Virus record (IMG/VR): IMGVR_UViG_3300013954_000001
Location: 1-64,000 of that record
Source: a virus
Taxonomy: Duplodnaviria; Heunggongvirae; Uroviricota; Caudoviricetes
Strand: one strand, 5' to 3'
DNA length: 64,000 nucleotides
Part shown: in pieces, positions 6,212 to 63,953 of the stretch
How the letters are laid out: each line of letters starts with the position of its first letter
Numbering within the stretch: position 1 is the first letter of the stretch
The notes under the pieces: generated by a model
What the model was told of the DNA's origin: nothing
The model's input: only the letters and a program-made list of their open reading frames with translations
Databases searched by the model: none
Program-made: the position numbers and the translations under genes

Positions 6212-6465
6212 TCACTATCAAAACTGTCAACAAAGCCATTGCGTCGAGCGACATCAAAGCCGAACTTGTACGCGGCGATGGATACTTCTATTTCGTCGGC
6301 CCTGACGTCGAATACGCCGCCACTACTTCAGTCATGGTGCCGCGTCTCAATGACTTGACGCTGGCACAATGGATAGAAGAGGTCATCATCACTGCCGCCG
6401 AAAGCAAAGAGCGCCTTGAAGCCATCAAGGCAGTTGCCGCCGACTCTATTATTATCAGAGGCTGA
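6208..6465 (+). CDS. Hypothetical protein (85 aa)
   Basis: Translationally coupled to the upstream ORF by an ATGA overlap. Confidence 0.45.
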   Translation: MITIKTVNKAIASSDIKAELVRGDGYFYFVGPDVEYAATTSVMVPRLNDLTLAQWIEEVIITAAESKERLEAIKAVAADSIIIRG

Positions 6466-6466
6466 C

Positions 6467-6706
6467 ATGGCTCAGTATCGAATAGTCGAATTCGAAGGTG
6501 ACTTCACGCCGCAAGCGCGTTTCACGTCTCGCGTGTACACACCTAAATGGTATCACTGGTTCTTGTGGCGCGACATGTGCTTCGCGTTTAAGAGTCTTGA
6601 AGAGGCCGAACGATATATCGACGGATACAGGCGACAACAGGCCAAAAGTCGGCGTATCATCCACAAGTATCCACGCGAGACAATTCATGAGGAGTATTTC
6701 CGTTGA
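6467..6706 (+). CDS. Hypothetical protein (79 aa)
   Basis: Start MAQYRIVEFEG follows an AGAGG RBS. The ORF track's longer N-terminus (6416) lacks an RBS. Confidence 0.4.
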   Translation: MAQYRIVEFEGDFTPQARFTSRVYTPKWYHWFLWRDMCFAFKSLEEAERYIDGYRRQQAKSRRIIHKYPRETIHEEYFR

Positions 6707-7236
6707 AATTCAGTGAACTCAAAACAGGTATGCGAGTCGTCACAGTAGATGGCACGACATTCATTTACATCGCCGACGCCAAAATGATCGTGTCGCAGGA
6801 CAGCGGCTACATGATGGCGAGGAGCTTCAACGAAGACCTGACGTGCAAGAGTATACCTGAAGAATTCGACATCGTCGAAGTGTATGACGTACCGGGTCCT
6901 GCCGTGTTGCTCGACTTCAGCGTCAAAGGTGATTTGTTATGGCGTCGTCGCACACAACTGGCGTCAGCCAATGTATTTGACGCCAATGGTATGTTTGTTT
7001 ACAGGCACTACGATCCGTATCGCGTCGACGTCGACGACGTCAACATCGTTGCCATCCACAATTCTATTTTCGACGTCAACGGCGCCGTGACAACAGAATT
7101 CATGGACGACTTGTATGTGTACCTGAGTTCGAAGCCGGGTCTCAGTTTCAAATGTGACGCCGTCAAGTTGTTCTATGCGCAAATGCATGGCAGAAACACT
7201 AGTTGCTGCTACCCAGCCGTCTACATGTGGAAATAG
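6703..7236 (+). CDS. Hypothetical protein (177 aa)
   Basis: Coupled to the upstream stop. Coding-like composition throughout. Confidence 0.5.
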   Translation: MKFSELKTGMRVVTVDGTTFIYIADAKMIVSQDSGYMMARSFNEDLTCKSIPEEFDIVEVYDVPGPAVLLDFSVKGDLLWRRRTQLASANVFDANGMFVYRHYDPYRVDVDDVNIVAIHNSIFDVNGAVTTEFMDDLYVYLSSKPGLSFKCDAVKLFYAQMHGRNTSCCYPAVYMWK

Positions 7237-7238
7237 CC

Positions 7239-7406
7239 ATGACTTCGAATTACGAAGGTGCTATCATCAAGAACATTCGAAAGCTGCCGGGGCGTGGCAA
7301 CATCGTTTACGCCGAACTGTTCGGCAGCGACGGTAAACTACTGATCGCCGCGACTCTCGAATACATTTACAAAGAATTGCAGGCTCGCATGCCTGACAAG
7401 GATTAA
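7239..7406 (+). CDS. Hypothetical small protein (55 aa)
   Basis: A short ORF filling the gap before the endonuclease VII-like gene. Its RBS is weak. Confidence 0.3.
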   Translation: MTSNYEGAIIKNIRKLPGRGNIVYAELFGSDGKLLIAATLEYIYKELQARMPDKD

Positions 7407-7798
7407 TGATGGGAAGCAAAACTAGATGCATATCGTGCAACACTGCATGCAACGGCGAACGATGTAGACTGTGTCGTAATGCTTATGTGAAAGAAACGGC
7501 AAAGTTCGATAAGACAGAATGGCGTCGCAGTAGACTATACGGCATGGAACCCGGTGAGTTTGACATATACTGGATGGCACAGCGAGGGATGTGCTATGTA
7601 TGCAACATTCAAATGAAGCCGCCGAGTAAAGGAAAGGGTCAGGCATTAGACGTTGTTGCAGTAGACCATTGTCATAAAACGGGAAAATTCAGAGGTTTGT
7701 TGTGTAACGGTTGCAATAAAGCTTTAGGATTTTTCAAAGACGATTTAGCAATACTCCGGTCTGCTATCAATTATTTAGAACAAGGGTCAATGAAATGA
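7406..7798 (+). CDS. Recombination endonuclease VII-family (T4 gp49-like) HNH/zinc nuclease
   Basis: CYVCN...LDVVAVDHCHKTGKFRGLLCNGCNKALG matches the EndoVII signature (T4: CLICQ...NHLDHDHELNGPKAGKVRGLLCNLCNAAEG). It carries an extra N-terminal Cys cluster. Confidence 0.75.
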   Translation: MMGSKTRCISCNTACNGERCRLCRNAYVKETAKFDKTEWRRSRLYGMEPGEFDIYWMAQRGMCYVCNIQMKPPSKGKGQALDVVAVDHCHKTGKFRGLLCNGCNKALGFFKDDLAILRSAINYLEQGSMK

Positions 7799-8877
7799 GA
7801 AAACTGGCAAAAATTGTAGTTATCGATGATGTGCGCAAGCATTCCAATGCAGACAAGCTAGAAATTGCTACAGTTGGCGGGTGGTCGATTGTCGTAGGGA
7901 AAGGCGAGTTCAGTAAAGGATCAATTGCTGTAATGTTCGAAGTTGACGCTATGCTCCCTATCGATAATCCTGCATTCGCTTTTCTGGCTGGCCGTAACGA
8001 ACGCCTAGTAGACGGCAAACCGTATGCTCGCATCAAGACGATGAAGCTGCGCGGCGAACTCAGCCAAGGCTTGTTGCTACCCGTTGACAGCGTAGGCGTC
8101 GACGCAACAACCCTTCTAGTCGACGACGACATGACCGAAGCGCTTGACGTCATCAAGTACGAACCGGCTCAGCCTAAAGTTCTGGCAGGTAACGCCAAAG
8201 GCAACTTCCCTGTCTTCATTCCGAAGACAGACCAAGAACGCGTGCAAAACATCAAGCGCGCCTACGAAGACGCTGTAGCAAGCGGCGAACTCTTCGAAGC
8301 CACGTATAAGCTTGACGGCTCTAGCTTCACGGCGTACGTAACTGGCCAGGGCAGCGGGCGCTTCGACAACGGCGACGCAGACGTGTGTATTGCCGAAGAC
8401 GTTGTAGTCGGCGTGTGTTCGCGCAACCTAGAGTTGAAGATCGACGACAGTAACGTTGACAACATGTTCGTCCAGACGTTCTTCAAGTACAACCTGCCTG
8501 TCAAGCTAGAATCGTTTCTTGCCGCCACCGGACGTCAAATTGCCGTTCAAGGTGAAATGGTAGGCCCAGGCATTCAAAACAACTTCGAAGGTCTGGACGA
8601 AGTCGAACTGTATATCTACGACATCTTCGACATCGACCGTCAAGGGTATGTTTGCGCCGACGAACGCGTCGAAATTTGCAAGCAGTTGGGTTTGCAGATG
8701 GTGCCAGTGTTTGACAGCCCCATGCGTTTACCTCAAACTATAGAAGAAGTACTGGCGCTAGCAGACGGTCCTAGCGGCCTGAAAGGTAAGTATCGCGAAG
8801 GCTTAGTTTTCAAGAGCTTGTCGCGCGACTTCTCCTTCAAGGTGATTTCGAACCGTTATCTACTCAAGGAAGCGTGA
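7795..8877 (+). CDS. RNA ligase with an N-terminal OB-fold (tRNA-binding-like) domain and a C-terminal nucleotidyltransferase domain (DraRnl/Rnl5-like)
   Basis: KxDG motif I is present as ATYKLDGSSFTAY. The N-terminus IVVIDDVRKHSNADKLEIATVGGWSIVVGKGEFSKG resembles the Myf/EMAP tRNA-binding OB fold. The OB-then-NTase domain order is characteristic of the Rnl5 family. Confidence 0.6.
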   Translation: MRKLAKIVVIDDVRKHSNADKLEIATVGGWSIVVGKGEFSKGSIAVMFEVDAMLPIDNPAFAFLAGRNERLVDGKPYARIKTMKLRGELSQGLLLPVDSVGVDATTLLVDDDMTEALDVIKYEPAQPKVLAGNAKGNFPVFIPKTDQERVQNIKRAYEDAVASGELFEATYKLDGSSFTAYVTGQGSGRFDNGDADVCIAEDVVVGVCSRNLELKIDDSNVDNMFVQTFFKYNLPVKLESFLAATGRQIAVQGEMVGPGIQNNFEGLDEVELYIYDIFDIDRQGYVCADERVEICKQLGLQMVPVFDSPMRLPQTIEEVLALADGPSGLKGKYREGLVFKSLSRDFSFKVISNRYLLKEA

Positions 8878-9677
8878 CAATGGAAATCAAGACTTGGAAA
8901 TTCCCTGCTGGTGAAGTCGGCGTTCGCCTAATAAACGTCGACGCAGACGAATATAATATCCACGCACCTCTAGGGTGCAGCGACGACTTTATGATGCTCG
9001 TCATGACTGTTGACGCCATTCGTCGGGCGACGCCTAACGCAAAAATCACTGTGTTCGCGCCATACATTCCTTACGGTCGTCAAGATCGCGTCTGTAATCG
9101 CGGCGAAAGCCTGAGCATTGCGGCGTTCGCCGGCTTGTTGAATTCGCTGCGACTCGACAAAATCATTACTATCGACACGCATAGCGCCGTCACTGACGCA
9201 GTTGTCAACAACTTGCATGTCATTCGGCAAGACTATGTTGTCGCTCGCATGCTAGGAAAGCGCTTCAAAGGTTGGCTGGCGGTAGCACCCGACGCAGGCG
9301 CCGCCAAAAAGGTTATTGATTCGGCGACGGCGGCTGGTATTACCGAATACGTCGTCTGCAATAAGACACGCGACCTGATGACTGGCAAAATCACTGATGC
9401 CAGCATTAACGGCGACGTCAGTGGTCGCGACGTATTCGTGTTCGACGACTTGTGCGACGGTGGCGCCACCTTCATTGAAGTCGCCAAGCTGTTACGTGAA
9501 GGCGGCGCCGCAAAAATTTGCCTGTACGTCACCCACGGCATTTTCACCAAAGGCGTAGAAGCAGTTGCACAACACTTCGACCACGTTTACACTACAAACA
9601 GTTATTGGCACGACGCCGACGTATTTGCCGGCGTGCCCAACATCACCGTTCTAGACGTATACAAGGAGTTTGCATGA
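8874..9677 (+). CDS. PRPP-synthetase-family enzyme, N-terminally short (267 aa); either Prs or an Adps-like ADPR-pyrophosphokinase
   Basis: Prs motifs are present: FPAGEV (FxxGE), RQDR, TIDTHS and DDLCDGGATF. The last corresponds to Prs DDMIDTGGT but has an altered loop. The stop overlaps the NAMPT-like ATG (ATGA). Confidence 0.8.
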   Translation: MTMEIKTWKFPAGEVGVRLINVDADEYNIHAPLGCSDDFMMLVMTVDAIRRATPNAKITVFAPYIPYGRQDRVCNRGESLSIAAFAGLLNSLRLDKIITIDTHSAVTDAVVNNLHVIRQDYVVARMLGKRFKGWLAVAPDAGAAKKVIDSATAAGITEYVVCNKTRDLMTGKITDASINGDVSGRDVFVFDDLCDGGATFIEVAKLLREGGAAKICLYVTHGIFTKGVEAVAQHFDHVYTTNSYWHDADVFAGVPNITVLDVYKEFA

Positions 9678-11350
9678 AACTTTTTCCGGTTCACTGCACC
9701 GATGGTTACAAGTTAGGCCATCGCGGCATGTATGCACCCGACACGACGCTGGTGTATTCTAACTTCACGCCGCGCAGTGACAGCCGCTTCAACGGCAGCC
9801 GCTTCTATGACGGCAAGATGGTTGTGTTCGGCATTCAAGGTTTCATCAACGAATTCCTTGTCGAAGTTTTCAACGAGAACTTCTTTGCCATCGACAAAGA
9901 AAAGGCTGTTGCTCGCTTTCGGCGTCGCGTCGACAACTACCTGACTCCAGGCTCTATTCCAGTCGACGGCATCGCAGCGCTTCACGACCTCGGCTATCTG
10001 CCGCTCGAAATCATGGCGCTTCCCGAAGGATCGCGAGTTCCGATGAAAGTGCCGGTACTGACTGTTCGCAACACGCACAAAGACTTCGCGTGGCTCGTCA
10101 ACTATCTCGAATCGGTTATCAGCAACTCGATTTGGAAGAGCATGGTTAACGCGACCCTCGCCTACGAATATCGTCGCGTCTTCGACTACTATGCCGACCT
10201 CACAGGTTCGCCTAAAGAACTGGTGATGTGGCAAGGCCACGACTTTTCGTATCGCGGCATGTCTGGCCCTGAAGATGGCGCCCGCAGTGGTGCCGCGCAT
10301 CTGCTGTGCTTCGCCGGCACTGACAGCGTTTCGGCAATCGACTACATCGAAGACTACTACGGCGCTGACGTCGAACACGGGTTTGTCGTAGGCTCTGTAC
10401 CTGCTACTGAACACAGCGTTTCGTCGAACAACATCCTGTTCGAAGAGCGCAAGTATGACGGCGACGTCACCAACTCTAAAATCTGTGCCGAAATCGCATT
10501 CATGCGGCGCTATCTCACTGAAGTCGTTGCAGACGGCGCAATCGCAAGCTATGTTGCCGACACTTACGACTACTTTGGTGTGTTGACTCGCGTGCTGCCG
10601 GCGCTCAAAGACGTCATTATGTCTCGCAGTGGCAAGCTCGTCATTCGTCCCGACAGCGGCGATCCCGTCAAGATCGTGTGCGGATACGACGCAGTTGTCG
10701 ACGTCACAGACCTTAGCGCCATGACGCTGTTCAAGGTTTACCACAACAACTGTGGCAGCAACGTTGCCGTACGCTGTGACGACAAATACTACAAAATCAA
10801 GGTATGGCGTGAACCTGAAGACGAAGAAGATCGCGTCGTAAAGGCTGTCGAAATCAGCGAAGCCGAAGTCAAGGGTTCTATTCAGATTTTGTGGGAGCTG
10901 TTCGGCGGCACTACAACTGACAAAGGCTTCAAGCTGTTAGACTCTCACATCGGCCTGATTTACGGCGACAGCATCACGCTTGACCGTCAAGATGCTATCC
11001 TGCGGCGGCTCGCAGCCAAAGGTTTCGCCAGCGCAAACGTTGTGTTCGGAATCGGCAGCTACACTTACAACTATTCGACTCGCGACACCTTTGGGTCGGC
11101 GATGAAGGCTACAATGTCTATCGTCGACGGCGAAGCCATCGAACTCTACAAAGACCCGAAGACAGGTGACGCCATGAAAAAGTCGGCGCGTGGCTTCTTG
11201 AAGGTCGAAAAGGTAGATGGAGAGTTCGTGCTTGTCGACCAAGTCGAAGGCATAGAAACCTACTGCGGCGAAATGAGTGTCGTCTTCTACAACGGCAACG
11301 CGTACTGCGAATCCTTCTATGCAATCCAAGACCGCCTGCTAAGCTCTTAA
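9674..11350 (+). CDS. nadV: Nicotinamide phosphoribosyltransferase family (NadV/NAMPT-like, or Namat-like)
   Basis: The N-terminus MKLFPVHCTDGYKLGHRGMY is the canonical NAMPT start. It has an AAGGAG RBS. The product is 558 aa with an internal insertion of about 60 aa. Confidence 0.85.
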   Translation: MKLFPVHCTDGYKLGHRGMYAPDTTLVYSNFTPRSDSRFNGSRFYDGKMVVFGIQGFINEFLVEVFNENFFAIDKEKAVARFRRRVDNYLTPGSIPVDGIAALHDLGYLPLEIMALPEGSRVPMKVPVLTVRNTHKDFAWLVNYLESVISNSIWKSMVNATLAYEYRRVFDYYADLTGSPKELVMWQGHDFSYRGMSGPEDGARSGAAHLLCFAGTDSVSAIDYIEDYYGADVEHGFVVGSVPATEHSVSSNNILFEERKYDGDVTNSKICAEIAFMRRYLTEVVADGAIASYVADTYDYFGVLTRVLPALKDVIMSRSGKLVIRPDSGDPVKIVCGYDAVVDVTDLSAMTLFKVYHNNCGSNVAVRCDDKYYKIKVWREPEDEEDRVVKAVEISEAEVKGSIQILWELFGGTTTDKGFKLLDSHIGLIYGDSITLDRQDAILRRLAAKGFASANVVFGIGSYTYNYSTRDTFGSAMKATMSIVDGEAIELYKDPKTGDAMKKSARGFLKVEKVDGEFVLVDQVEGIETYCGEMSVVFYNGNAYCESFYAIQDRLLSS

Positions 11351-11353
11351 GTG

Positions 11354-11392
11354 TTGACGCCAGACGCATGCGGTTTTATACTGCATGCGTCT
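11354..11392 (+). promoter_or_regulatory. Sigma70-type promoter (TTGACG-17-TATACT) embedded in a perfect 10-bp inverted repeat (AGACGCATGC ... GCATGCGTCT), a putative operator
   Basis: The -35/-10 spacing is exact. The dyad is centred on the -10 box. The GTGAAGAAAGAGAG leader follows. Confidence 0.5.
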
Positions 11393-21934: not shown

Positions 21935-22732
21935 ATGTTCACTCAACATATTTATAGCGTACCTCACATTCAACATCACTTAGACAGGTACGTTAAGTTC
22001 ATCACAACGGCAATGAAGCAAAACGAACCTATCGGTGAAACTATAGAAATCCACCACATACTACCAAAGTCTATATGGCCAGAATTCTCAAACCTCAAAA
22101 AGAATCCCTGGAACATGGTGAGACTTACGTCTCGGCAACATTTTATAGCTCATTGCATGCTTGTCAAGTGTTTCTTCGATTCACACAAGCGTTCTATGTG
22201 CTACGCGTTAAAGTGTATGAAAGGTGTTCACTCTAACTACGACCGGTATTTCAACTCGAAGACTTACAATACACTGCGGCATTTAGTTTCAAATGCCTGT
22301 TCTGGCGAAAATAACGCAATGTACGGTAAAACTCACTCTGAAGTAGCAAGAGCGAAGATAAGCGCTACGCATAAAGGTAGAGAAATCACGAAGGAACACC
22401 GAGCCAAAATCAGTAACGCTATGTCGGGTGAGAACCATCCATTGTTCGGTACTACCAGATCAGAAGACACGAAAAAGAAGATTAGTGCGGCAATGGCCGG
22501 CAAGAAAACTCGATTAGGTGCCGTTTTAACTGATGAAACAAAAGAAAAAATCAGAAAGTCTCTTACCGGTAGAAAGCGTGAACCTGTATCTGAAGAGACT
22601 AAGGCTAAGCTTCGAGCGGCGAGAGCCAAACAGAAACCTAACCCTGTGATGGTATGCCCGTACTGCAAGCTAGAAAGCCGCAACAAAGGTAATATGACCA
22701 GGTATCATTTCGATAACTGCAAGATGAAGTGA
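21935..22732 (+). CDS. HNH homing endonuclease with three NUMOD3 repeats and a C-terminal C2HC zinc knuckle
   Basis: The HNH motif is IEIHHILPKS...N...RLTSRQHFIAH. The repeats read NAMYGKTHSE/ARAKIS, GENHPLFGTTRSEDTKKKIS and TDETKEKIRKS. The C-terminus is CPYCKLESRNKGNMTRYHFDNCK. It is inserted between gp32 and gp59 on the opposite strand. Confidence 0.75.
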   Translation: MFTQHIYSVPHIQHHLDRYVKFITTAMKQNEPIGETIEIHHILPKSIWPEFSNLKKNPWNMVRLTSRQHFIAHCMLVKCFFDSHKRSMCYALKCMKGVHSNYDRYFNSKTYNTLRHLVSNACSGENNAMYGKTHSEVARAKISATHKGREITKEHRAKISNAMSGENHPLFGTTRSEDTKKKISAAMAGKKTRLGAVLTDETKEKIRKSLTGRKREPVSEETKAKLRAARAKQKPNPVMVCPYCKLESRNKGNMTRYHFDNCKMK

Positions 22733-28658: not shown

Positions 28659-29084
28659 TCAGAGTACGCCTAGTCGTATACCGTTTCTGATTGACATCAG
28701 AATGTTACCGAGTCGATTCGAACCTCTGCCACGGCAGACTCCCCAAAACGTGTCACCCCAATAGTTACCTTCGACAAGCTTGTCTTCGCCTGTAGCGAGT
28801 AGGCGTTGCCTTAAATCGGCATCGGCGAACTTCTGAATCAGTAGGCATTCCATGACGCGTTCGCGGCGACAATACCAGTCAGGAGTCAACACGACTGTCT
28901 GACCAATTCGCTTGGCTGCGCCCGGAGTGGCGGCGTCACGAATACGCTGTCTGTCTGCGACACATGCAGTCTTAGCAGCTTGGTAGGCGTGTTCTACACT
29001 AGGGTAGATTTCGCCTTCGTATTCGATAGGCACCGCATAGAAGTTGCTGAGAAAGTCGTAGTCGCCGCTAAACGAGGTAATCAC
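28659..29084 (-). CDS. NADAR (YbiA/DUF1768) domain protein
   Basis: FSGDYDFLSNFYAVPIEYEGEIYPSVEHAYQAAK and W..D.FWG are the hallmark NADAR blocks. An ATGA overlap couples it to the upstream SLOG gene. Confidence 0.7.
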   Translation of the reverse strand: MITSFSGDYDFLSNFYAVPIEYEGEIYPSVEHAYQAAKTACVADRQRIRDAATPGAAKRIGQTVVLTPDWYCRRERVMECLLIQKFADADLRQRLLATGEDKLVEGNYWGDTFWGVCRGRGSNRLGNILMSIRNGIRLGVL

Positions 29085-29446
29085 AGTAGTAGCCCCAACG
29101 TGTTGATGTTGTATTGACAGATTCGAAGTCTAGCCTTTTTAGCGCGTCGCAACATGTCGGCACTGCCGTCAGACTCGCCATCCCATATGAGAACAAGTGC
29201 GTCTGCGTAGTCTGCCATGCGCTGATTTCTGACAAAGCCGGCTGTCAGCTTGCCGTCGCGTAGCCAGTCGGCGGGAAAGTCTTTGTAAGCAATACCTTTC
29301 GACTGTCCCCAAGCCTTTCCTATGTTGTCGACGCCGTCGGCACATCCACAAACAACTTCGGTGACGACAAAGTCTAGGTCGTCTAGTATCGAATAGACTA
29401 GAGAGACGTCGTTGATGTGACGCGATCCGGCAATGATAGTTTTCAT
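29081..29446 (-). CDS. SLOG-superfamily (DUF2493/YpsA-like) protein
   Basis: IIAGSRHIND...VVCGCADGVDNIGKAWG...DFPADW fits the DUF2493 signature GxR ... GGAxGaD ... WA. It is the first gene of the operon with NADAR. Confidence 0.5.
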   Translation of the reverse strand: MKTIIAGSRHINDVSLVYSILDDLDFVVTEVVCGCADGVDNIGKAWGQSKGIAYKDFPADWLRDGKLTAGFVRNQRMADYADALVLIWDGESDGSADMLRRAKKARLRICQYNINTLGLLL

Positions 29447-33931: not shown

Positions 33932-34333
33932 TTAGGCCAGCATGAAAATCTTGAGGCCGTGCTTGACGACGGCAAGATACACGTGGTCTTTCAGGCGTTG
34001 CGCTTCTGGCAGCTTGTCGTAGCTCACCATGCAAGGGTGCATCTTGAGGTCTACGTTCTTTTCGGCGCCATACACCCATCCGTCGCGAACCTTTTGAGCC
34101 ATCCAGTTTTTGTGACTTTGCTCAGGTGTAGTGTCAGGATTCTTGAGGACGTGAACGACGCCGTCAATAGCCGATTGTTGTTGCCAGTCGGGTGCGTCGT
34201 TCCAATCTGGTTGGCTGAAGTCGCCCAGACCTTCACACAGCCCCTTGTTTACTTGATGTGCGTATTCGGCGACAGTCGCGATACACGCGATAACGAACTC
34301 TTGTTCGGCGCCTTGCATTAGTGCGTCATTCAT
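33932..34333 (-). CDS. RyR-domain protein
   Basis: HKNWMAQKVRDGWVYGAEKNVDLKMHPCMVSYDKLPEAQRLKD fits the RyR signature W...K...GW.YG...K.HP.LVPY..LPE. The start was chosen at the internal Met that has an AAGAGG RBS. Confidence 0.55.
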   Translation of the reverse strand: MNDALMQGAEQEFVIACIATVAEYAHQVNKGLCEGLGDFSQPDWNDAPDWQQQSAIDGVVHVLKNPDTTPEQSHKNWMAQKVRDGWVYGAEKNVDLKMHPCMVSYDKLPEAQRLKDHVYLAVVKHGLKIFMLA

Positions 34334-34754
34334 TACAACCAACCTCTTTCTTGTTAACACCAATTGCGTACTTGTGACGCAACACCCATTCATCGCGGTC
34401 GCCGTACTTGATCACCTTGACAGTGCTGGGGTGGTCAATGACCTCCATATTTTCGGGAGACAGAACTTTGACGAGGTTCCACTCTTCGAGCATCTTGACG
34501 ATCCGGTTGCGTCTGGCGATATCACCTTCGCTCAAGTCGTTGCGCAGACCATCGAGTGCAAACAACTCTTTGAAGTGACAGATGTAGTAGCGGCCACGAC
34601 GATGCAGAATGTGTGCGCTTTGATTCAACACTTTTTCGTGTCGGCTCGGCACGCCCATGCGCGTCAACGTCTCTTTGATCTTGCGGAACCCGTCATCACC
34701 ACCCAACGGCTGAATTTCTACCATCTTAGCGATGATGTCTTCATGGGTAATCAT
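34326..34754 (-). CDS. regA: Translational repressor RegA
   Basis: FRKIKETLTRMGVPSRHEKVLNQSAHILHRRGRYYICHFKELFALDG matches T4 RegA FLKVKETLTRMGIANNKDKVLYQSCHILQKKGLYYIVHFKEMLRMDG. Confidence 0.75.
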   Translation of the reverse strand: MITHEDIIAKMVEIQPLGGDDGFRKIKETLTRMGVPSRHEKVLNQSAHILHRRGRYYICHFKELFALDGLRNDLSEGDIARRNRIVKMLEEWNLVKVLSPENMEVIDHPSTVKVIKYGDRDEWVLRHKYAIGVNKKEVGCNE

Positions 34755-55652: not shown

Positions 55653-56408
55653 ATGACTATGTATATCGTGTATCTGACAGAAAATCTAGTGAACGGAAAA
55701 ATATATGTTGGAGCCCATAAGACTGATCGTCTCGACGATGGATATTTAGGTTAAGGGCCAGCGATAAAGAATGCCATTAAAAAGTATGGTAGAAAGAATT
55801 TTAGTAGACAAGTCCTTTTCGTGTTCGACAACGAAGCCGACATGTACGAAATGGAAAGTCGAATAGTAGATAGTGAATTTGTTCGTCGCCAAGATAACTA
55901 CAACGGCATCACTGGCGGTATGACAGGTAGACATTTTCCAGGTGAGCTACACCCTATGTACGGAAAGTCTCATTCAGAAGACACTAAGCGAAAAATGAGC
56001 GCCGCTAAGAAAGGTGACAAACACCATAACTGGGGCAAGACTGGCGAAGGCATGCCAATGTTTGCAAAGAATCACAGCGAAGAGTCTAAAAACAAAATAC
56101 GCGCAGCAATGATTGGCAACAAGCACGGTAAAGGATTCAAATGGTCAGATGACGCCAAGGCTAGAATGAGCGAAGCGCGCAAAGGCTCTGACACTTCTCA
56201 TTTAGTTAGGTGTGGCGAAGACAACGGTTTCTTTGGTAAGTCACACTCTGAAGAAACTAAAACCAAAATTCGTGAAAGTTATAACAAATCTCAAATATTA
56301 CTGACTTGCCCGCACTGCGAAAAGCAGTCGAGGAACAAGGCTAATATGAGACGTTATCATTTTGATAACTGCAAGTCTATAAATAATGTAAACATTTTAG
56401 AGGTTTAA
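55653..56408 (+). pseudogene. GIY-YIG homing endonuclease (Seg/I-TevI-like) with NUMOD3 repeats and a C2HC zinc knuckle, interrupted by an in-frame TAA at 55752-55754
   Basis: The N-terminus YIVYLTENLVNGKIYVGAHKT is a GIY-YIG box, followed by a TAA. The same frame continues AIKKYGRKNFSRQVLFVFDNE...NYNGI, which is the KYG..NF.F.ILE...GYNI continuation of the family. The C-terminal CPHCEKQSRNKANMRRYHFDNCK matches the HNH gene at 21935. Confidence 0.55.
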
Positions 56409-63488: not shown

Positions 63489-63953
63489 TTACTCGCCGAT
63501 AGTCGGGTCGTACTCGACAACAGTCAAGTCTTCGCCTTCCATTTCTTCAGCGATGATAGCCGAGATAATCGACCAGTCGCCGCGTGCAAGGCCGGCGCCG
63601 ATCAACGGGATTCCGAAGCGCTTGCCTTGGCCGCCGTGTACGATCTTGATTTGCTTGAACGCGTTACGAACGGCGTCGTAATCGCAATTCATGGCAGGTC
63701 CGCTGTAGCTGAATTGCGTGTAGGCGTTGACGATGACGCCGAAGCCTTCGATTTCAGCTTGAGTGAAGCTACCAAGCTTTTCACGATCCCACTTCTTCGT
63801 CATCTTGTCGACGTTCCATGCGGCTGGGAAGCGCTCGCGAATCTGGCGCGCAATGCCTGCACCCATGTTGTTGCCACAGTTGCAGCCGTGAACGATGACG
63901 TCGAAGTCGCCATTGCTGAACTTAGTGAGGAGATCGCCTTTTACTGTTTTCAT
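63489..63953 (-). CDS. Macro-domain protein (ADP-ribose binding/hydrolase fold)
   Basis: DVIVHGCNCGNNMGAGIARQI parallels the macro N-terminal block (ivNaAN..l.gGgGvdgAI). GIPLIGAGLARGDW parallels iafPaIstGiyg.p. Start MKTVKG was chosen because it has an AAGGAA RBS. Confidence 0.65.
   Translation of the reverse strand: MKTVKGDLLTKFSNGDFDVIVHGCNCGNNMGAGIARQIRERFPAAWNVDKMTKKWDREKLGSFTQAEIEGFGVIVNAYTQFSYSGPAMNCDYDAVRNAFKQIKIVHGGQGKRFGIPLIGAGLARGDWSIISAIIAEEMEGEDLTVVEYDPTIGE

What the first reader, a model, noticed from the sequence alone, without database searches (positions are those of the whole stretch)
8874..11350. Translationally coupled Prs-like + NAMPT-like pair: NAD+ salvage or NARP1-type NAD+ reconstitution
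A 267-aa PRPP-synthetase-family protein has an ATGA overlap with a 558-aa NAMPT-family protein. Established: phages carry either NadV(+NatV) salvage, or the two-gene NARP1 pathway (Adps, a Prs homolog that makes ADPR-PP, and Namat, a NAMPT homolog that joins it to nicotinamide); both rebuild NAD+ depleted by Thoeris/DSR/SEFIR-type immunity. Seen in the sequence: the Prs-like protein lacks about 25 N-terminal residues. Its ribose-5-phosphate loop reads DDLCDGGAT rather than DDMIDTGGT, while the ATP-site residues (FxxGE, RQDR, His) are kept. The NAMPT-like protein has an internal insertion of about 60 aa. No NMNAT gene is adjacent. Inference: the altered phosphate-binding loop and tight coupling favour an Adps/Namat (NARP1) function, but this cannot be decided from sequence.
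Basis: partly seen in the sequence, partly recalled or inferred. Interest (0 to 1): 0.75.

Follow-up and report, generated by a model that had tools for sequence, protein, structure and literature searches.

The report
Phage NARP1 NAD+ rebuilding gene pair
This pf16-like phage carries the already-described two-gene NARP1 pathway (Adps plus Namat), which rebuilds NAD+ from ADP-ribose and nicotinamide after bacterial immune systems destroy it; it is an ordinary new member with a few small quirks.

Summary
A Prs-like ORF (8880-9677, 265 aa; 267 aa from GTG 8874) overlaps by ATGA a 558-aa NAMPT-like ORF (9674-11350).

Namat-like protein: it carries the selectivity-clamp motif GS-X-phi-X-phi-X-phi-TRD as GSYTYNYSTRD and an intact catalytic core. 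Its best sequence and structural match is the SPbetaL1 Namat crystal structure. It sits in a 100%-bootstrap clade apart from KVP40-type Nampt.

Prs-like protein: it has the Adps-type PP loop (DDLCDGGATF), the essential Lys162 and no PRPS C-terminal module. A profile of the three verified Adps scores it 188 bits against 96 for E. coli Prs.

No NMNAT or Nudix gene lies in the 64 kb; the rest of the ~150-kb genome was out of reach.

Caveats:
- Haemophilus NadV nests inside the Namat clade, so the clamp residues and the Adps partner carry the argument, not phylogeny.
- The Namat SCL loop is atypical (SDSRF).
- The Adps lacks its first beta-strand, yet dN/dS is 0.12.
- Activity is untested.

The "60-aa insertion" is a family-wide variable subdomain. 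Verdict: new member of a known kind, low interest.

The parts
8880..9677 (+). adps: ADP-ribose pyrophosphate synthetase (PRPS-like), 265 aa. The maximal ORF starts at GTG 8874.
   Evidence: ORF and sequence. Family hits. Adps signature residues. Profile of the three verified Adps scores it 188 bits against 96 for E. coli Prs. AF2 pLDDT 95.2 with a PRPS fold. dN/dS 0.12.
8866..8872 (+). Shine-Dalgarno-like AAGGAAG, 7 nt upstream of ATG 8880. Favours the 265-aa start over GTG 8874.
   Evidence: Read directly from the sequence. 265-aa gene calls in relatives.
9363..9365 (+). Codon for Adps Lys162, the essential catalytic lysine. Equivalent to SPbetaL1 K162 and ICP1 K185.
   Evidence: Alignment mapping. 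Invariant in 120 homologs. Mutational evidence for the equivalent residue: bioRxiv 10.1101/2024.02.11.579819 and PMC13586617.
9444..9473 (+). Adps PP loop DDLCDGGATF (residues 189-198), the remodelled donor-ATP loop.
   Evidence: Family consensus is DD[IL]CDGG[RA]TF in 120 homologs against DDMIDTGGTL in E. coli Prs.
9674..11350 (+). namat: nicotinamide ADP-ribose transferase (NAMPT-like), 558 aa.
   Evidence: 430 bits to the SPbetaL1 Namat (9W5X/9W5W) against ~165 to mammalian NAMPT. Tree placement. AF2 pLDDT 92.8; top Foldseek hit 9W5X with TM 0.93. dN/dS 0.12.
9674..9677 (+). ATGA start/stop overlap between adps and namat, preceded by AAGGAG at 9663-9668.
   Evidence: The same overlap occurs in SPbetaL1 and in relatives L015-L018 and L022.
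9776..9790 (+). Namat selectivity-clamp loop (SCL) core S35-D-S-R-F39. Atypical: Ser sits where Arg, Lys or Tyr is usual, and Arg comes one position later.
   Evidence: This variant is unique among 89 homologs.
10685..10870 (+). Variable insertion subdomain of Namat (residues 338-399). Predicted as an ordered small alpha/beta unit.
   Evidence: No counterpart in 9W5X. Length 10-92 aa across the family, with a semi-conserved 'AVR-x-GDKYYKL' core. Strands 340-344, 364-368, 371-379 and 387-394, helix 349-359; ten-residue-block pLDDT 72-93.
11054..11086 (+). Namat selectivity-clamp helix (SCH) motif G461-S-Y-T-Y-N-Y-S-T-R-D471.
   Evidence: It is the commonest variant, in 35 of 89 homologs. The motif is defined in PMC12774641.
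11362..11392 (+). Strong hairpin (13-bp stem) 12 nt after the namat stop codon. Likely the end of the transcription unit, but it has no U-tract.
   Evidence: Fold energy -26 kcal/mol, z = -5.8, with 0 of 200 shuffles as stable. pf16 has an annotated terminator at the same place after its Namat.

Best explanation
The two genes are a NARP1 module. [quoted passage not shown] Lys162 and the remodelled PP loop DDLCDGGATF do this, giving ADPR-PP and AMP. Step 2 (inferred): Namat (9674-11350) replaces the pyrophosphate with nicotinamide using the conserved NAMPT catalytic core (F191, R194, D217, H247, R325, D327). Its adenine clamp (Y463 and Y467 of the SCH, plus probably R38 or F39 of the partner protomer's SCL) selects ADPR-PP over PRPP. 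NAD+ is therefore made directly and no NMNAT is needed. The genes are translationally coupled, lie at the end of a tightly packed co-directional block that begins upstream of the RNA ligase gene, and are followed by a strong hairpin. What is shown here: gene structure, residue signatures, family placement, fold and purifying selection. What is inferred: the chemistry and the anti-defence role.
For: Namat side:
- SCH motif GSYTYNYSTRD fits GS-X-phi1-X-phi2-X-phi3-TRD with aromatic X (rule from PMC12774641). Four NARP2-type Nampts read GGGLLQ..RD and have a short SCL.
- All catalytic-core residues are conserved and invariant across 89 homologs.
- It scores 430 bits to the SPbetaL1 Namat against ~165 to mammalian NAMPT. 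In phage genomes, Namat-type hits score 330-590 bits and KVP40-like or Aeh1 NadV score <=165.
- The Namat clade has 100% bootstrap support, with the window protein nested inside it.
- The top structural hit is 9W5X.

Adps side:
- The PP loop, K162, D189/D190, H101, D138, R67 and F8 all map onto the ICP1 and SPbetaL1 functional residues.
- The C-terminus ends 77 residues after the DD motif against 96 in E. coli Prs, so the alpha11-alpha12 module is missing.
- A profile built from the three verified Adps scores it 188 bits against 96 for E. coli Prs.
- TIGR01251 scores 161 bits, against 98-139 for verified Adps and 423 for E. coli Prs. All Prs equivalog models are far below their cutoffs.

Context:
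- The pair is adjacent and overlapping, as in SPbetaL1.
- There is no NMNAT, Nudix, NadR or PnuC in 64 kb.
- dN/dS is 0.12 for both genes.
- GenBank depositors already label the 41-48% identical Pakpunavirus homologs as Adps and Namat.
- Osterman et al. report that 97% of Adps-clade genes sit next to a Namat and that no phage carries both NARP1 and NARP2.
Against: - No enzymology has been done on this protein pair or on any close relative. The nearest verified enzymes are 28-35% (Adps) and 41-48% (Namat) identical.
- The SCL third residue is Ser rather than Arg, Lys or Tyr, a variant unique among 89 homologs.
- The Adps lacks the N-terminal beta-strand present in 118 of 120 homologs. ICP1 F92, an adenine contact, is Cys72 here, although Cys is >=90% conserved in this subfamily.
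- H. ducreyi NadV, crystallised with NMN, nests inside the Namat clade. Namat itself can use PRPP in vitro (PMC12774641). Homology to Namat therefore does not by itself exclude NMN synthesis.
- Only 64 kb of a ~150-kb genome could be searched for an NMNAT.
- The Adps/Prs tree had a single Prs outgroup, and its internal nodes are weakly supported.
Confidence: 0.88

Rival explanations
1. Classical salvage. The Prs-like enzyme makes PRPP from ribose-5-phosphate and the NAMPT-like enzyme makes NMN from PRPP and nicotinamide. NAD+ is then completed by a host NadR or NadD, or by a phage NMNAT encoded outside the window (a NARP2-like logic).
For: - Generic family models name the genes this way: Pfam, PHROG 619 and 448, and NF006629 at 467 bits, above its cutoff.
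- Namat enzymes retain PRPP-to-NMN activity in vitro (PMC12774641).
- HdNadV, a NadV crystallised with NMN, lies inside the same clade.
- About 86 kb of the genome was not searched.
Against: - The same generic models also name the verified Adps and Namat as Prs and Nampt, so they do not discriminate.
- The clamp aromatics that HdNadV and the NARP2-type Nampts lack are present here.
- The Prs-like protein fails every Prs equivalog model and lacks the PRPS C-terminal module and the R5P-type loop.
- SPbetaL1 Adps gave no product from ribose-5-phosphate.
- No NMNAT lies in 64 kb.
- NARP1 and NARP2 have never been found together in one phage.
Confidence: 0.05
2. Half-broken module. The lineage-specific loss of the Adps N-terminal beta-strand impairs folding or hexamer assembly. 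Only the Namat-like enzyme would then work, using host PRPP as a plain NadV.
For: Only the window and its 97%-identical relative have 7 residues before FPAGE, against 17-21 typically. In ICP1 Adps the N-terminal domains form the hexamer core (PMC13586617).
Against: - Adps dN/dS is 0.12, with 19 synonymous and 8 non-synonymous changes, the same constraint as Namat.
- All catalytic residues are intact.
- The AF2 model is confident from residue 1: pLDDT 95.2 overall and 95 for the first 10-residue block.
- The short form is kept in at least five independent metagenomic contigs.
Confidence: 0.04
3. Shifted specificity. The atypical SCL (SDSRF), together with the truncated Adps, adapts the pair to a different ribosyl acceptor or donor than ADPR and ADPR-PP, for example another nucleoside-diphosphate-ribose.
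For: The SCL variant is unique among 89 homologs, and the N-terminus is unusual.
Against: - The SCH aromatics, F39 (>=90% conserved) and the whole NMN-site are standard.
- Single SCL mutations lower SPbetaL1 Namat activity only 1.3-1.7-fold.
- Arg38 is adjacent and could stack as a fourth-position residue does in Bas63.
Confidence: 0.03

Closest known systems
NARP1 of Bacillus phage SPbetaL1 (Adps WIT26982, Namat WIT26983; PDB 9W5X/9W5W). Biochemically characterised.
   Same: Two-gene order adps then namat, with the same 4-nt start/stop overlap. Same Namat catalytic core and SCH motif (GSFTYQYNTRD against GSYTYNYSTRD). Adps K162 aligns with K162. It is the best PDB match by sequence (430 bits) and by structure (TM 0.93).
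   Different: Only 28.5% (Adps) and 46-47% (Namat) identical. The SPbetaL1 Namat lacks both insertions (491 against 558 aa). The SPbetaL1 Adps PP loop is DDLSSFGGTF. SCL Arg40 aligns with Ser37 here.
NARP1 of Escherichia phage Bas63 / JohannRWettstein (genes 79-80). Validated in vivo by deletion.
   Same: Gram-negative-phage type: PP loop DDICDGGRTF, SCH GSYTYQYMTRD, and Namat carrying both insertions (593 aa).
   Different: 35% and 41% identical. There is a 45-nt intergenic gap rather than an overlap. The insertion subdomain is about 40 aa longer. The Adps has a full-length N-terminus.
Adps of Vibrio phage ICP1 (crystal and cryo-EM structures, PMC13586617)
   Same: PP loop C215, D216 and F221, K185, D212/D213, H121, D161, R87 and F18 are all conserved in the window protein. 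Both lack alpha11-alpha12.
   Different: 32.5% identical. F92 is Cys72 here. Ten fewer N-terminal residues, so beta1 is missing.
Pseudomonas phage pf16 gp164/gp163 (Chakrabartyvirus). Closest cultured relative, uncharacterised.
   Same: Adps 47% and Namat 57-61% identical, with an identical SCH motif. The major capsid protein is 80% identical. An RNA ligase lies upstream and a terminator follows Namat. pf16 also has a RyR-domain gene.
   Different: pf16 has a 31-nt gap between the genes, a shorter Namat insertion (538 aa), a normal Adps N-terminus and SCL ADRLF.
Haemophilus ducreyi NadV (PDB 9KE8/9KEO, crystallised with NMN or NAM)
   Same: Same clade as the Namats (sister to SPbetaL1, 96% bootstrap). 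44% identical to the window protein, scoring 354 bits.
   Different: It lacks the clamp: SCH-equivalent GAQTYQRNTRD has no aromatics at positions 3 and 7, and its SCL reads SNEQ. It is deposited as a NadV with NMN bound.
NARP2 of Vibrio phage KVP40 (Nampt/NadV + Nmnat/NatV). Proxies used here: R11Z, D490, Aeh1, VAC13.
   Same: Same NAMPT superfamily and same anti-NADase purpose.
   Different: 25-31% identity. SCH-equivalent is GGGLLQ..RD and the SCL is short. It is a separate clade (100% bootstrap). It needs an Nmnat, which the window lacks.

Membership tests
NARP1 - Namat | NAMPT-like fold with conserved catalytic core (SPbetaL1 F189, R192, D215, catalytic His245, R306, D308, G360-D361, G390-S391, R399, D400) | tested here: met
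   Window equivalents are F191, R194, D217, H247, R325, D327, G431-D432, G461-S462, R470 and D471, all invariant in 89 homologs. AF2 pLDDT is 92.8 and the top hit is 9W5X with TM 0.93.
NARP1 - Namat | [quoted passage not shown] | tested here: met
   GSYTYNYSTRD, with Y463 and Y467. HdNadV reads GAQTYQRNTRD and the NARP2-type Nampts read GGGLLQxxxRD.
NARP1 - Namat | SCL loop supplying an adenine-stacking residue: third residue Arg, Lys or Tyr, or the fourth residue when the third is Lys or Tyr | tested here: inconclusive
   The loop is long, as in Namats, but reads S35-D-S37-R38-F39. The third residue is Ser, a variant unique among 89 homologs. Arg38 and the >=90%-conserved Phe39 follow. Stacking needs a dimer-plus-ligand model, which was not available.
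NARP1 - Namat | Falls in the Namat clade, distinct from NARP2-type Nampt | tested here: met
   NJ trees give 100% bootstrap for the clade Bas63 + SPbetaL1 + ICP1 + UAVern + pf16 + window against R11Z, D490, VAC13 and Aeh1. Caveat: HdNadV also falls in this clade, so this feature is necessary but not sufficient.
NARP1 - Namat | Prefers ADPR-PP over PRPP and forms NAD+ directly | not testable with these tools
   Requires enzyme assays.
NARP1 - Adps | PRPS-like two-domain fold with the catalytic Lys (ICP1 K185 / SPbetaL1 K162) and acceptor residues R87, H121, D161, D212, D213, D216 | tested here: met
   Window equivalents are K162, R67, H101, D138, D189, D190 and D193, invariant or >=90% conserved in 120 homologs. 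AF2 pLDDT is 95.2 with a PRPS fold at TM 0.83-0.85.
NARP1 - Adps | Remodelled PP loop conserved among Adps (ICP1 C215-D-G-A-A-S220 followed by F221), unlike the PRPS loop DDMIDTGGT | tested here: met
   DDLCDGGATF. The consensus across 120 homologs is DD[IL]CDGG[RA]TF, Bas63 reads DDICDGGRTF, and E. coli Prs reads DDMIDTGGTL.
NARP1 - Adps | Loss of the PRPS C-terminal alpha11-alpha12 module, called a 'defining evolutionary signature' in PMC13586617 | tested here: met
   The protein ends 77 residues after the DD motif, against a median of 71 in homologs and 96 in E. coli Prs. The alignment shows no counterpart of the E. coli segment AEAIRRISNEESISAMFEH.
NARP1 - Adps | Adenine contacts for ADPR: ICP1 F18 (from the neighbouring protomer), R87 and F92 | tested here: inconclusive
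   F8 and R67 are conserved. F92 is Cys72 here, Cys in >=90% of this subfamily, Met in Bas63 and Ser in SPbetaL1. F92 is therefore not a family-wide feature.
NARP1 - Adps | Groups with verified Adps rather than with bona fide Prs | tested here: met
   An HMM built from Bas63, SPbetaL1 and ICP1 Adps scores the window protein 188 bits and E. coli Prs 96. TIGR01251 gives 161 bits, against 98-139 for verified Adps and 423 for Prs; NF002320 gives 117, against 74-101 and 533. In the NJ tree the protein is nested among verified Adps, but there is a single Prs outgroup and support is weak.
NARP1 - Adps | Converts ADPR + ATP to ADPR-PP and does not make PRPP from ribose-5-phosphate | not testable with these tools
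   Requires enzyme assays and LC-MS.
NARP1 - operon | Adps and Namat within 10 genes of each other (Osterman et al. definition) | tested here: met
   They are adjacent, with a 4-nt overlap. The same holds in relatives L015-L018 and L022.
NARP2 (KVP40 type) | KVP40-clade Nampt plus an Nmnat (NatV) gene in the genome | tested here: not met
   The Nampt-type clade and motif are excluded. There is no PF01467 or PF00293 hit in any ORF >=110 aa of the 64-kb window. The rest of the ~150-kb genome could not be searched.
Canonical ribose-phosphate diphosphokinase (Prs) | Passes curated Prs models; has the R5P 5-phosphate loop DDMIDTGGT, the N-terminal helix and the C-terminal regulatory/filament module | tested here: not met
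   Every equivalog or subfamily model except the broad TIGR01251 is far below its cutoff, for example 117 against 297 and 129 against 296. The loop, N-terminus and C-terminus all differ.
NARP1-AP (NARP1 with associated phosphatase Adpp) | Poa1p-like macrodomain phosphatase gene within two genes of the NARP1 operon | tested here: not met
   No macro gene lies near the pair. A macro-like ORF lies 52 kb away at 63489-63950 (-). It is 39% identical to the NARP1-adjacent macro protein of phage Adele and weakly similar to Poa1p. A function in trans is possible but untested.
NARP3 | PnuC-like transporter plus NadR-like bifunctional enzyme (PMC13464706) | tested here: not met
   No such Pfam domains appear in the window scan.

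The most novel reading that the evidence does not exclude
The phage may run a dispersed, multi-input NAD+ recovery network rather than a bare NARP1. Three unlinked genes would all funnel different immune products into the same ADPR-to-ADPR-PP-to-NAD+ route:
- A RyDEP-like RyR-domain glycosidase (33932-34330, with the catalytic dyad retained) would turn Thoeris cADPR signals into linear ADPR.
- A Poa1p/Adpp-like macrodomain phosphatase (63489-63950) would turn aRES-made ADPR-1''-phosphate into ADPR.
- The Adps/Namat pair would carry out the core reactions.

The adjacent NADAR and YAcAr/SLOG genes would be further, unassigned ADPR-handling parts. Separately, the beta1-less Adps could be a naturally minimised Adps with altered oligomerisation.
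Probability: 0.3. Interest if true: 0.45.

Novelty: new member of a known kind. Interest (0 to 1): 0.25.

Why it matters
NARP1 was described in 2024 and occurs in about 4% of sequenced phages, so finding it in one more pf16-like phage is not surprising.

The practical value lies in annotation. Generic models (Pfam, PHROG, NCBIfam) still call these genes 'ribose-phosphate pyrophosphokinase' and 'nicotinamide/nicotinate phosphoribosyltransferase'. This case shows that the 2026 sequence rules separate NARP1 from Prs/NadV without wet work. Those rules are the Namat SCH motif, the Adps PP loop and the Adps C-terminal truncation.

It also gives a caution. Haemophilus NadV sits inside the Namat clade but has lost the clamp, so tree placement alone should not be used to call Namat.

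Knowing that the phage carries NARP1, and probably RyDEP-like and Adpp-like helpers, predicts resistance to SIR2-, TIR- and SEFIR-type NAD+-depleting defences. That matters for host-range prediction and for choosing or engineering phages.

Tried and rejected
- Megablast of the locus against GenBank phages found nothing.
- I tried to fetch KVP40's own NadV and NatV by guessing coordinates and failed three times. I used the same-genus phage R11Z plus D490, Aeh1 and VAC13 as NARP2-type references. No NatV sequence was obtained, so the NMNAT search relied on Pfam only.
- A guessed Bas63 accession (MZ501113) turned out to be Bas35. The right one, MZ501086, came from a paper.
- PHROG families 619 and 448 and NCBIfam NF006629 do not separate Adps from Prs or Namat from Nampt, so I rejected them as membership tests.
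- Raw pairwise identity does not classify the Adps: 28.5% to SPbetaL1 Adps against 27.6% to E. coli Prs. A profile test replaced it.
- A literature search for PDB 9KE8 returned only false hits. Its identity as HdNadV came from the Foldseek description.
- Attempts to extend the NMNAT search beyond the window through the source contig reached only 3.6-12.5-kb fragments.
- The pooled-ORF Pfam trick produced artefactual 'Serglycin' hits from my GS linkers, which I ignored.
- One script had a syntax error and one Pfam call had wrong coordinates.
- I considered NARP3 (PnuC + NadR) and rejected it because the gene types differ.
- I considered whether the short Adps could be extended upstream. The in-frame upstream codons contain no start codon and encode nothing Adps-like, so I rejected this.
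- The long antisense ORFs inside namat (for example 9713-10744, minus strand) give no family hits and are treated as non-coding.

Full report
THE OBSERVATION. The window holds, on the + strand, a Prs-like ORF at 8874-9677 and a NAMPT-like ORF at 9674-11350. The ATG of the second overlaps the TGA of the first as ATGA. The maximal first ORF starts at GTG 8874 (267 aa). However, the AAGGAAG Shine-Dalgarno sequence at 8866-8872 is correctly spaced only for ATG 8880, and independent gene calls on five related metagenomic contigs give 265 aa. I therefore take 8880 as the start. The second gene has a strong AAGGAG five bases before its ATG. Pfam, PHROG and NCBIfam assign the proteins to the PRPP-synthetase and NAMPT/NAPRTase families.

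WHAT DEFINES NARP1. Osterman et al. (bioRxiv 10.1101/2024.02.11.579819) showed that a Prs-like enzyme, Adps, pyrophosphorylates ADP-ribose to ADPR-PP, and that a NAMPT-like enzyme, Namat, joins ADPR-PP to nicotinamide to give NAD+. In their data 97% of Adps-clade genes sit next to a Namat. KVP40-type Nampt forms a separate clade that travels with an Nmnat (NARP2), and no phage carried both pathways. Two 2026 structural papers give sequence rules:
- For Namat (PMC12774641): a conserved NAMPT core plus an adenine 'selectivity clamp'. The clamp consists of a helix motif GS-X-phi-X-phi-X-phi-TRD (the SCH), with aromatics at positions 3 and 7, and a variable loop (the SCL) that contributes a stacking Arg, Lys or Tyr.
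- For Adps (PMC13586617): a remodelled PP loop that binds the ATP donor, a catalytic Lys on a beta-hairpin, conserved acceptor residues, and loss of the PRPS C-terminal alpha11-alpha12 module.
NARP3 is a PnuC/NadR pair and is irrelevant here.

THE NAMAT-LIKE PROTEIN. I fetched the characterised references: Bas63 genes 79-80, the SPbetaL1 pair, the ICP1 pair, and NARP2-type Nampts from R11Z, D490, Aeh1 and VAC13.
- Motif and core. The window protein reads GSYTYNYSTRD at the SCH. Bas63 reads GSYTYQYMTRD and SPbetaL1 reads GSFTYQYNTRD, whereas all four NARP2-type proteins read GGGLLQ..RD and have a short SCL. All catalytic-core residues map (F191, R194, D217, H247, R325, D327, G431-D432, G461-S462, R470, D471) and are invariant in 89 database homologs.
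- Similarity. The protein scores 430 bits against the SPbetaL1 Namat crystal-structure sequence and about 165 against mammalian NAMPT. Across 2,044 phage records the hits split into a 330-590-bit group, which includes the Bas63 genus, and a <=165-bit group that includes KVP40-like phages and Aeh1 NadV.
- Tree and structure. A neighbour-joining tree gives 100% bootstrap to a clade of verified Namats plus pf16, UAVern and the window protein. An AlphaFold2 model (pLDDT 92.8) has 9W5X as its best Foldseek match, with TM 0.93 on the target.

A CAUTION FROM HAEMOPHILUS NADV. The second-best PDB family, 9KE8/9KEO, is H. ducreyi NadV crystallised with NMN or nicotinamide. I rebuilt it from the alignment and added it to the tree. 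It nests inside the Namat clade as sister to SPbetaL1 Namat (96% bootstrap, 58% identity). It has lost the clamp: its SCH-equivalent reads GAQTYQRNTRD and its SCL reads SNEQ. Clade membership therefore cannot by itself decide substrate choice. The clamp residues and the Adps partner must carry the argument, and the window protein has both.

THE SCL IS THE ONE SOFT SPOT. The SCL reads SDSRF. Nearly all of the 89 homologs read SDRLF, SNRLF, SDKYF or similar, and the window variant is unique. Arg38 sits one position later than usual, and Phe39 is >=90% conserved. In SPbetaL1, single SCL mutations cost only 1.3-1.7-fold in activity, and in Bas63 the fourth residue does the stacking. I score this feature inconclusive rather than failed.

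THE INSERTION. Residues 338-399 lie between the RPDSGDP strand and the following helix and have no counterpart in SPbetaL1 or ICP1 Namat. Across 89 homologs this site holds 10 to 92 residues (median 59), with a semi-conserved core that reads VAVRCDDKYYKI in the window. Bas63, the in-vivo-validated enzyme, carries an even longer version. The model predicts an ordered strand-helix-three-strand unit. A second, shorter insertion at 255-271 is likewise shared with Bas63, pf16 and UAVern. The insertion is a lineage trait of Gram-negative-phage Namats, not an anomaly. Its role is unknown.

THE ADPS-LIKE PROTEIN.
- Why identity fails. Pairwise identity is uninformative: 28.5% to SPbetaL1 Adps against 27.6% to E. 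coli Prs.
- Signature residues. The PP loop DDLCDGGATF matches the consensus DD[IL]CDGG[RA]TF of 120 homologs and resembles Bas63 (DDICDGGRTF) and ICP1 (DDICDGAASF), not E. coli (DDMIDTGGTL). Lys162 aligns with the essential SPbetaL1 K162 and ICP1 K185. R67, H101, D138, D189, D190, D193 and F8 match the ICP1 ligand-binding residues. The chain ends where other Adps end, without the E. coli C-terminal segment.
- Profile tests. A profile built only from the three biochemically verified Adps scores the window protein 188 bits and E. coli Prs 96. On NCBIfam's Prs models the window protein (TIGR01251 161 bits, NF002320 117) lies near verified Adps (98-139 and 74-101) and far from E. coli Prs (423 and 533).
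- Fold and tree. The AlphaFold2 model is confident (pLDDT 95.2) with a PRPS fold. No Adps structure was in the PDB copies searched. The Adps/Prs tree places the protein among verified Adps but rests on a single outgroup.

THE SHORT N-TERMINUS. E. coli Prs has 34 residues before FxxGE and typical Adps have 17-21. The window protein has 7, a form shared only with its 97%-identical relative P0001. It thus lacks the first beta-strand that other Adps keep. No upstream start is available. Against a 96%-identical 140-kb metagenomic relative, Adps shows 19 synonymous and 8 non-synonymous changes (dN/dS 0.12). Namat shows the same ratio, with 42.5 and 18.5 changes. The short form is therefore a maintained gene.

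CONTEXT.
- Genome. The phage is a pf16-like, T4-type myovirus. Its major capsid protein is 80% identical to Pseudomonas phage pf16, with the next best at 53%. An identical Namat lies on a 150.7-kb contig.
- Operon. The pair closes a tightly packed co-directional block running from 6416 to 11350, directly after an RNA ligase gene. A 13-bp-stem hairpin follows it (-26 kcal/mol, z = -5.8), where pf16 has an annotated terminator.
- NMNAT search. A Pfam scan of all ORFs >=110 aa found no NMNAT, Nudix, NadR or PnuC domain in the 64 kb. I could not reach the remaining ~86 kb.

MECHANISM AND VERDICT. The best-supported reading (0.88) is a functional NARP1. Adps makes ADPR-PP from immune-generated ADPR and ATP, and Namat makes NAD+ directly with nicotinamide, so no NMNAT is needed. 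The rivals are classical Prs/NadV salvage (0.05), a crippled Adps leaving a NadV-like Namat (0.04), and shifted substrate specificity (0.03). This is a new member of a known kind. Depositors of related Pakpunavirus genomes already use the NARP1 names. Interest is low (0.25).

SEEN IN PASSING. The same window carries other NAD/ADP-ribose genes.
- A RyR-domain protein (33932-34330, minus strand). It retains the RyDEP residues H75, W78, H100 and D117 as H73, W76, H98 and D115. RyDEP hydrolyses Thoeris cADPR signals to linear ADPR, which feeds NARP1.
- A macrodomain ORF (63489-63950, minus strand). It is 39% identical to the NARP1-adjacent macro protein of phage Adele and weakly similar to the ADPR-1''-phosphatase Poa1p. 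This matches the Adpp of 'NARP1-AP'.
- Adjacent NADAR and YAcAr/SLOG genes (28659-29446, minus strand).
These suggest, but do not show, a dispersed NAD+-recovery toolkit.

Noticed in passing
window 33932-34390 (-), likely start at 34330: A RyR-domain protein (PF02026, 41.8 bits against a cutoff of 27.4). Aligned to mycobacteriophage Aegeus gp81, which sits between that phage's Adps and Namat as described for DyoEdafos RyDEP, it keeps the catalytic dyad and ligand residues: H73, W76, H98 and D115 correspond to H75, W78, H100 and D117. Q54 is Ser. It is a candidate cADPR glycosidase, or a sponge, that could supply ADPR to NARP1. Here it lies 22 kb from the pair, whereas in Salmonella phage pertopsoe the RyR gene is immediately upstream of Adps.
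   Followed up: partly
window 63489-63950 (-): A macrodomain-like ORF. It is sub-threshold in Pfam (ThsA_Macro E 0.002, Macro E 0.009) but has 2,821 phage homologs, often annotated 'phosphatase'. PDB hits include macrodomain proteins and yeast Poa1p, the ADP-ribose 1''-phosphate phosphatase (E 2e-4). It is 39% identical to the macro protein located two genes after Namat in Pseudomonas phage Adele. It is a possible unlinked Adpp, the phosphatase of 'NARP1-AP' that counters aRES defence.
   Followed up: partly
window 28659-29084 (-) and 29081-29446 (-): Adjacent, overlapping genes with a NADAR domain (PF08719, 83.6 bits) and a YAcAr/SLOG domain (PF10686, 42.9 bits), next to the DNA ligase gene. 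Both domain families are linked to NAD and ADP-ribose metabolism. Their role here is unknown.
   Followed up: no
tree; PDB 9KE8/9KEO: Haemophilus ducreyi NadV, deposited with NMN bound, nests inside the phage Namat clade as sister to SPbetaL1 Namat (96% bootstrap, 58% identity). It lacks both clamp elements (GAQTYQRNTRD; SCL SNEQ). This suggests a Namat-derived enzyme that reverted to, or kept, PRPP use, and it is a warning against calling Namat from phylogeny alone.
   Followed up: partly
window 8880-8903 (Adps residues 1-8): The Adps lacks the first beta-strand (consensus 'MIxYxI...') that 118 of 120 homologs have. The short form is shared only with a 97%-identical relative and is under purifying selection (dN/dS 0.12). 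The effect on hexamer assembly is unknown.
   Followed up: partly
window 7406-7798 (+): An endonuclease VII-family gene (PF02945) lies between a small ORF and the RNA ligase. It is absent from the 93-96%-identical 140-kb relative L015, whose alignment breaks at window 7402-7936. It looks like a mobile homing-endonuclease insertion. The start of the RNA ligase also differs between the two.
   Followed up: partly
window 7795-8877 (+); L001, L002, L015, L023: An RNA ligase gene lies immediately or a few genes upstream of Adps in the window, its metagenomic relatives, pf16, UAVern and Adele. In Adele a polynucleotide kinase lies between them. This is a recurrent RNA-repair/NARP1 synteny of unknown significance.
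   Followed up: no
L006:4356-5675 (Vibrio phage ICP1 isolate 2017_Dha_AB): The Namat homolog annotated in this ICP1 isolate is N-terminally short (439 aa, lacking the D13/Y15 region and the SCL). It also reads TCD instead of TRD in the SCH, so the Arg that salt-bridges the NMN phosphate is Cys. This could be a mis-annotated start, or a degraded Namat in this isolate.
   Followed up: no
window 21935-22732 (+) and 55821-56408 (+): Two NUMOD3-motif ORFs, of the kind found in GIY-YIG or HNH-type homing endonucleases, are embedded among replication and structural genes.
   Followed up: no
window 11354-11382 (+): The best sigma-70-like promoter match in the region (TTGACG, 17 nt, TATACT; 10 of 12 positions) lies inside the hairpin that follows namat. 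Terminator and promoter signals for the next gene (11413) therefore overlap.
   Followed up: no
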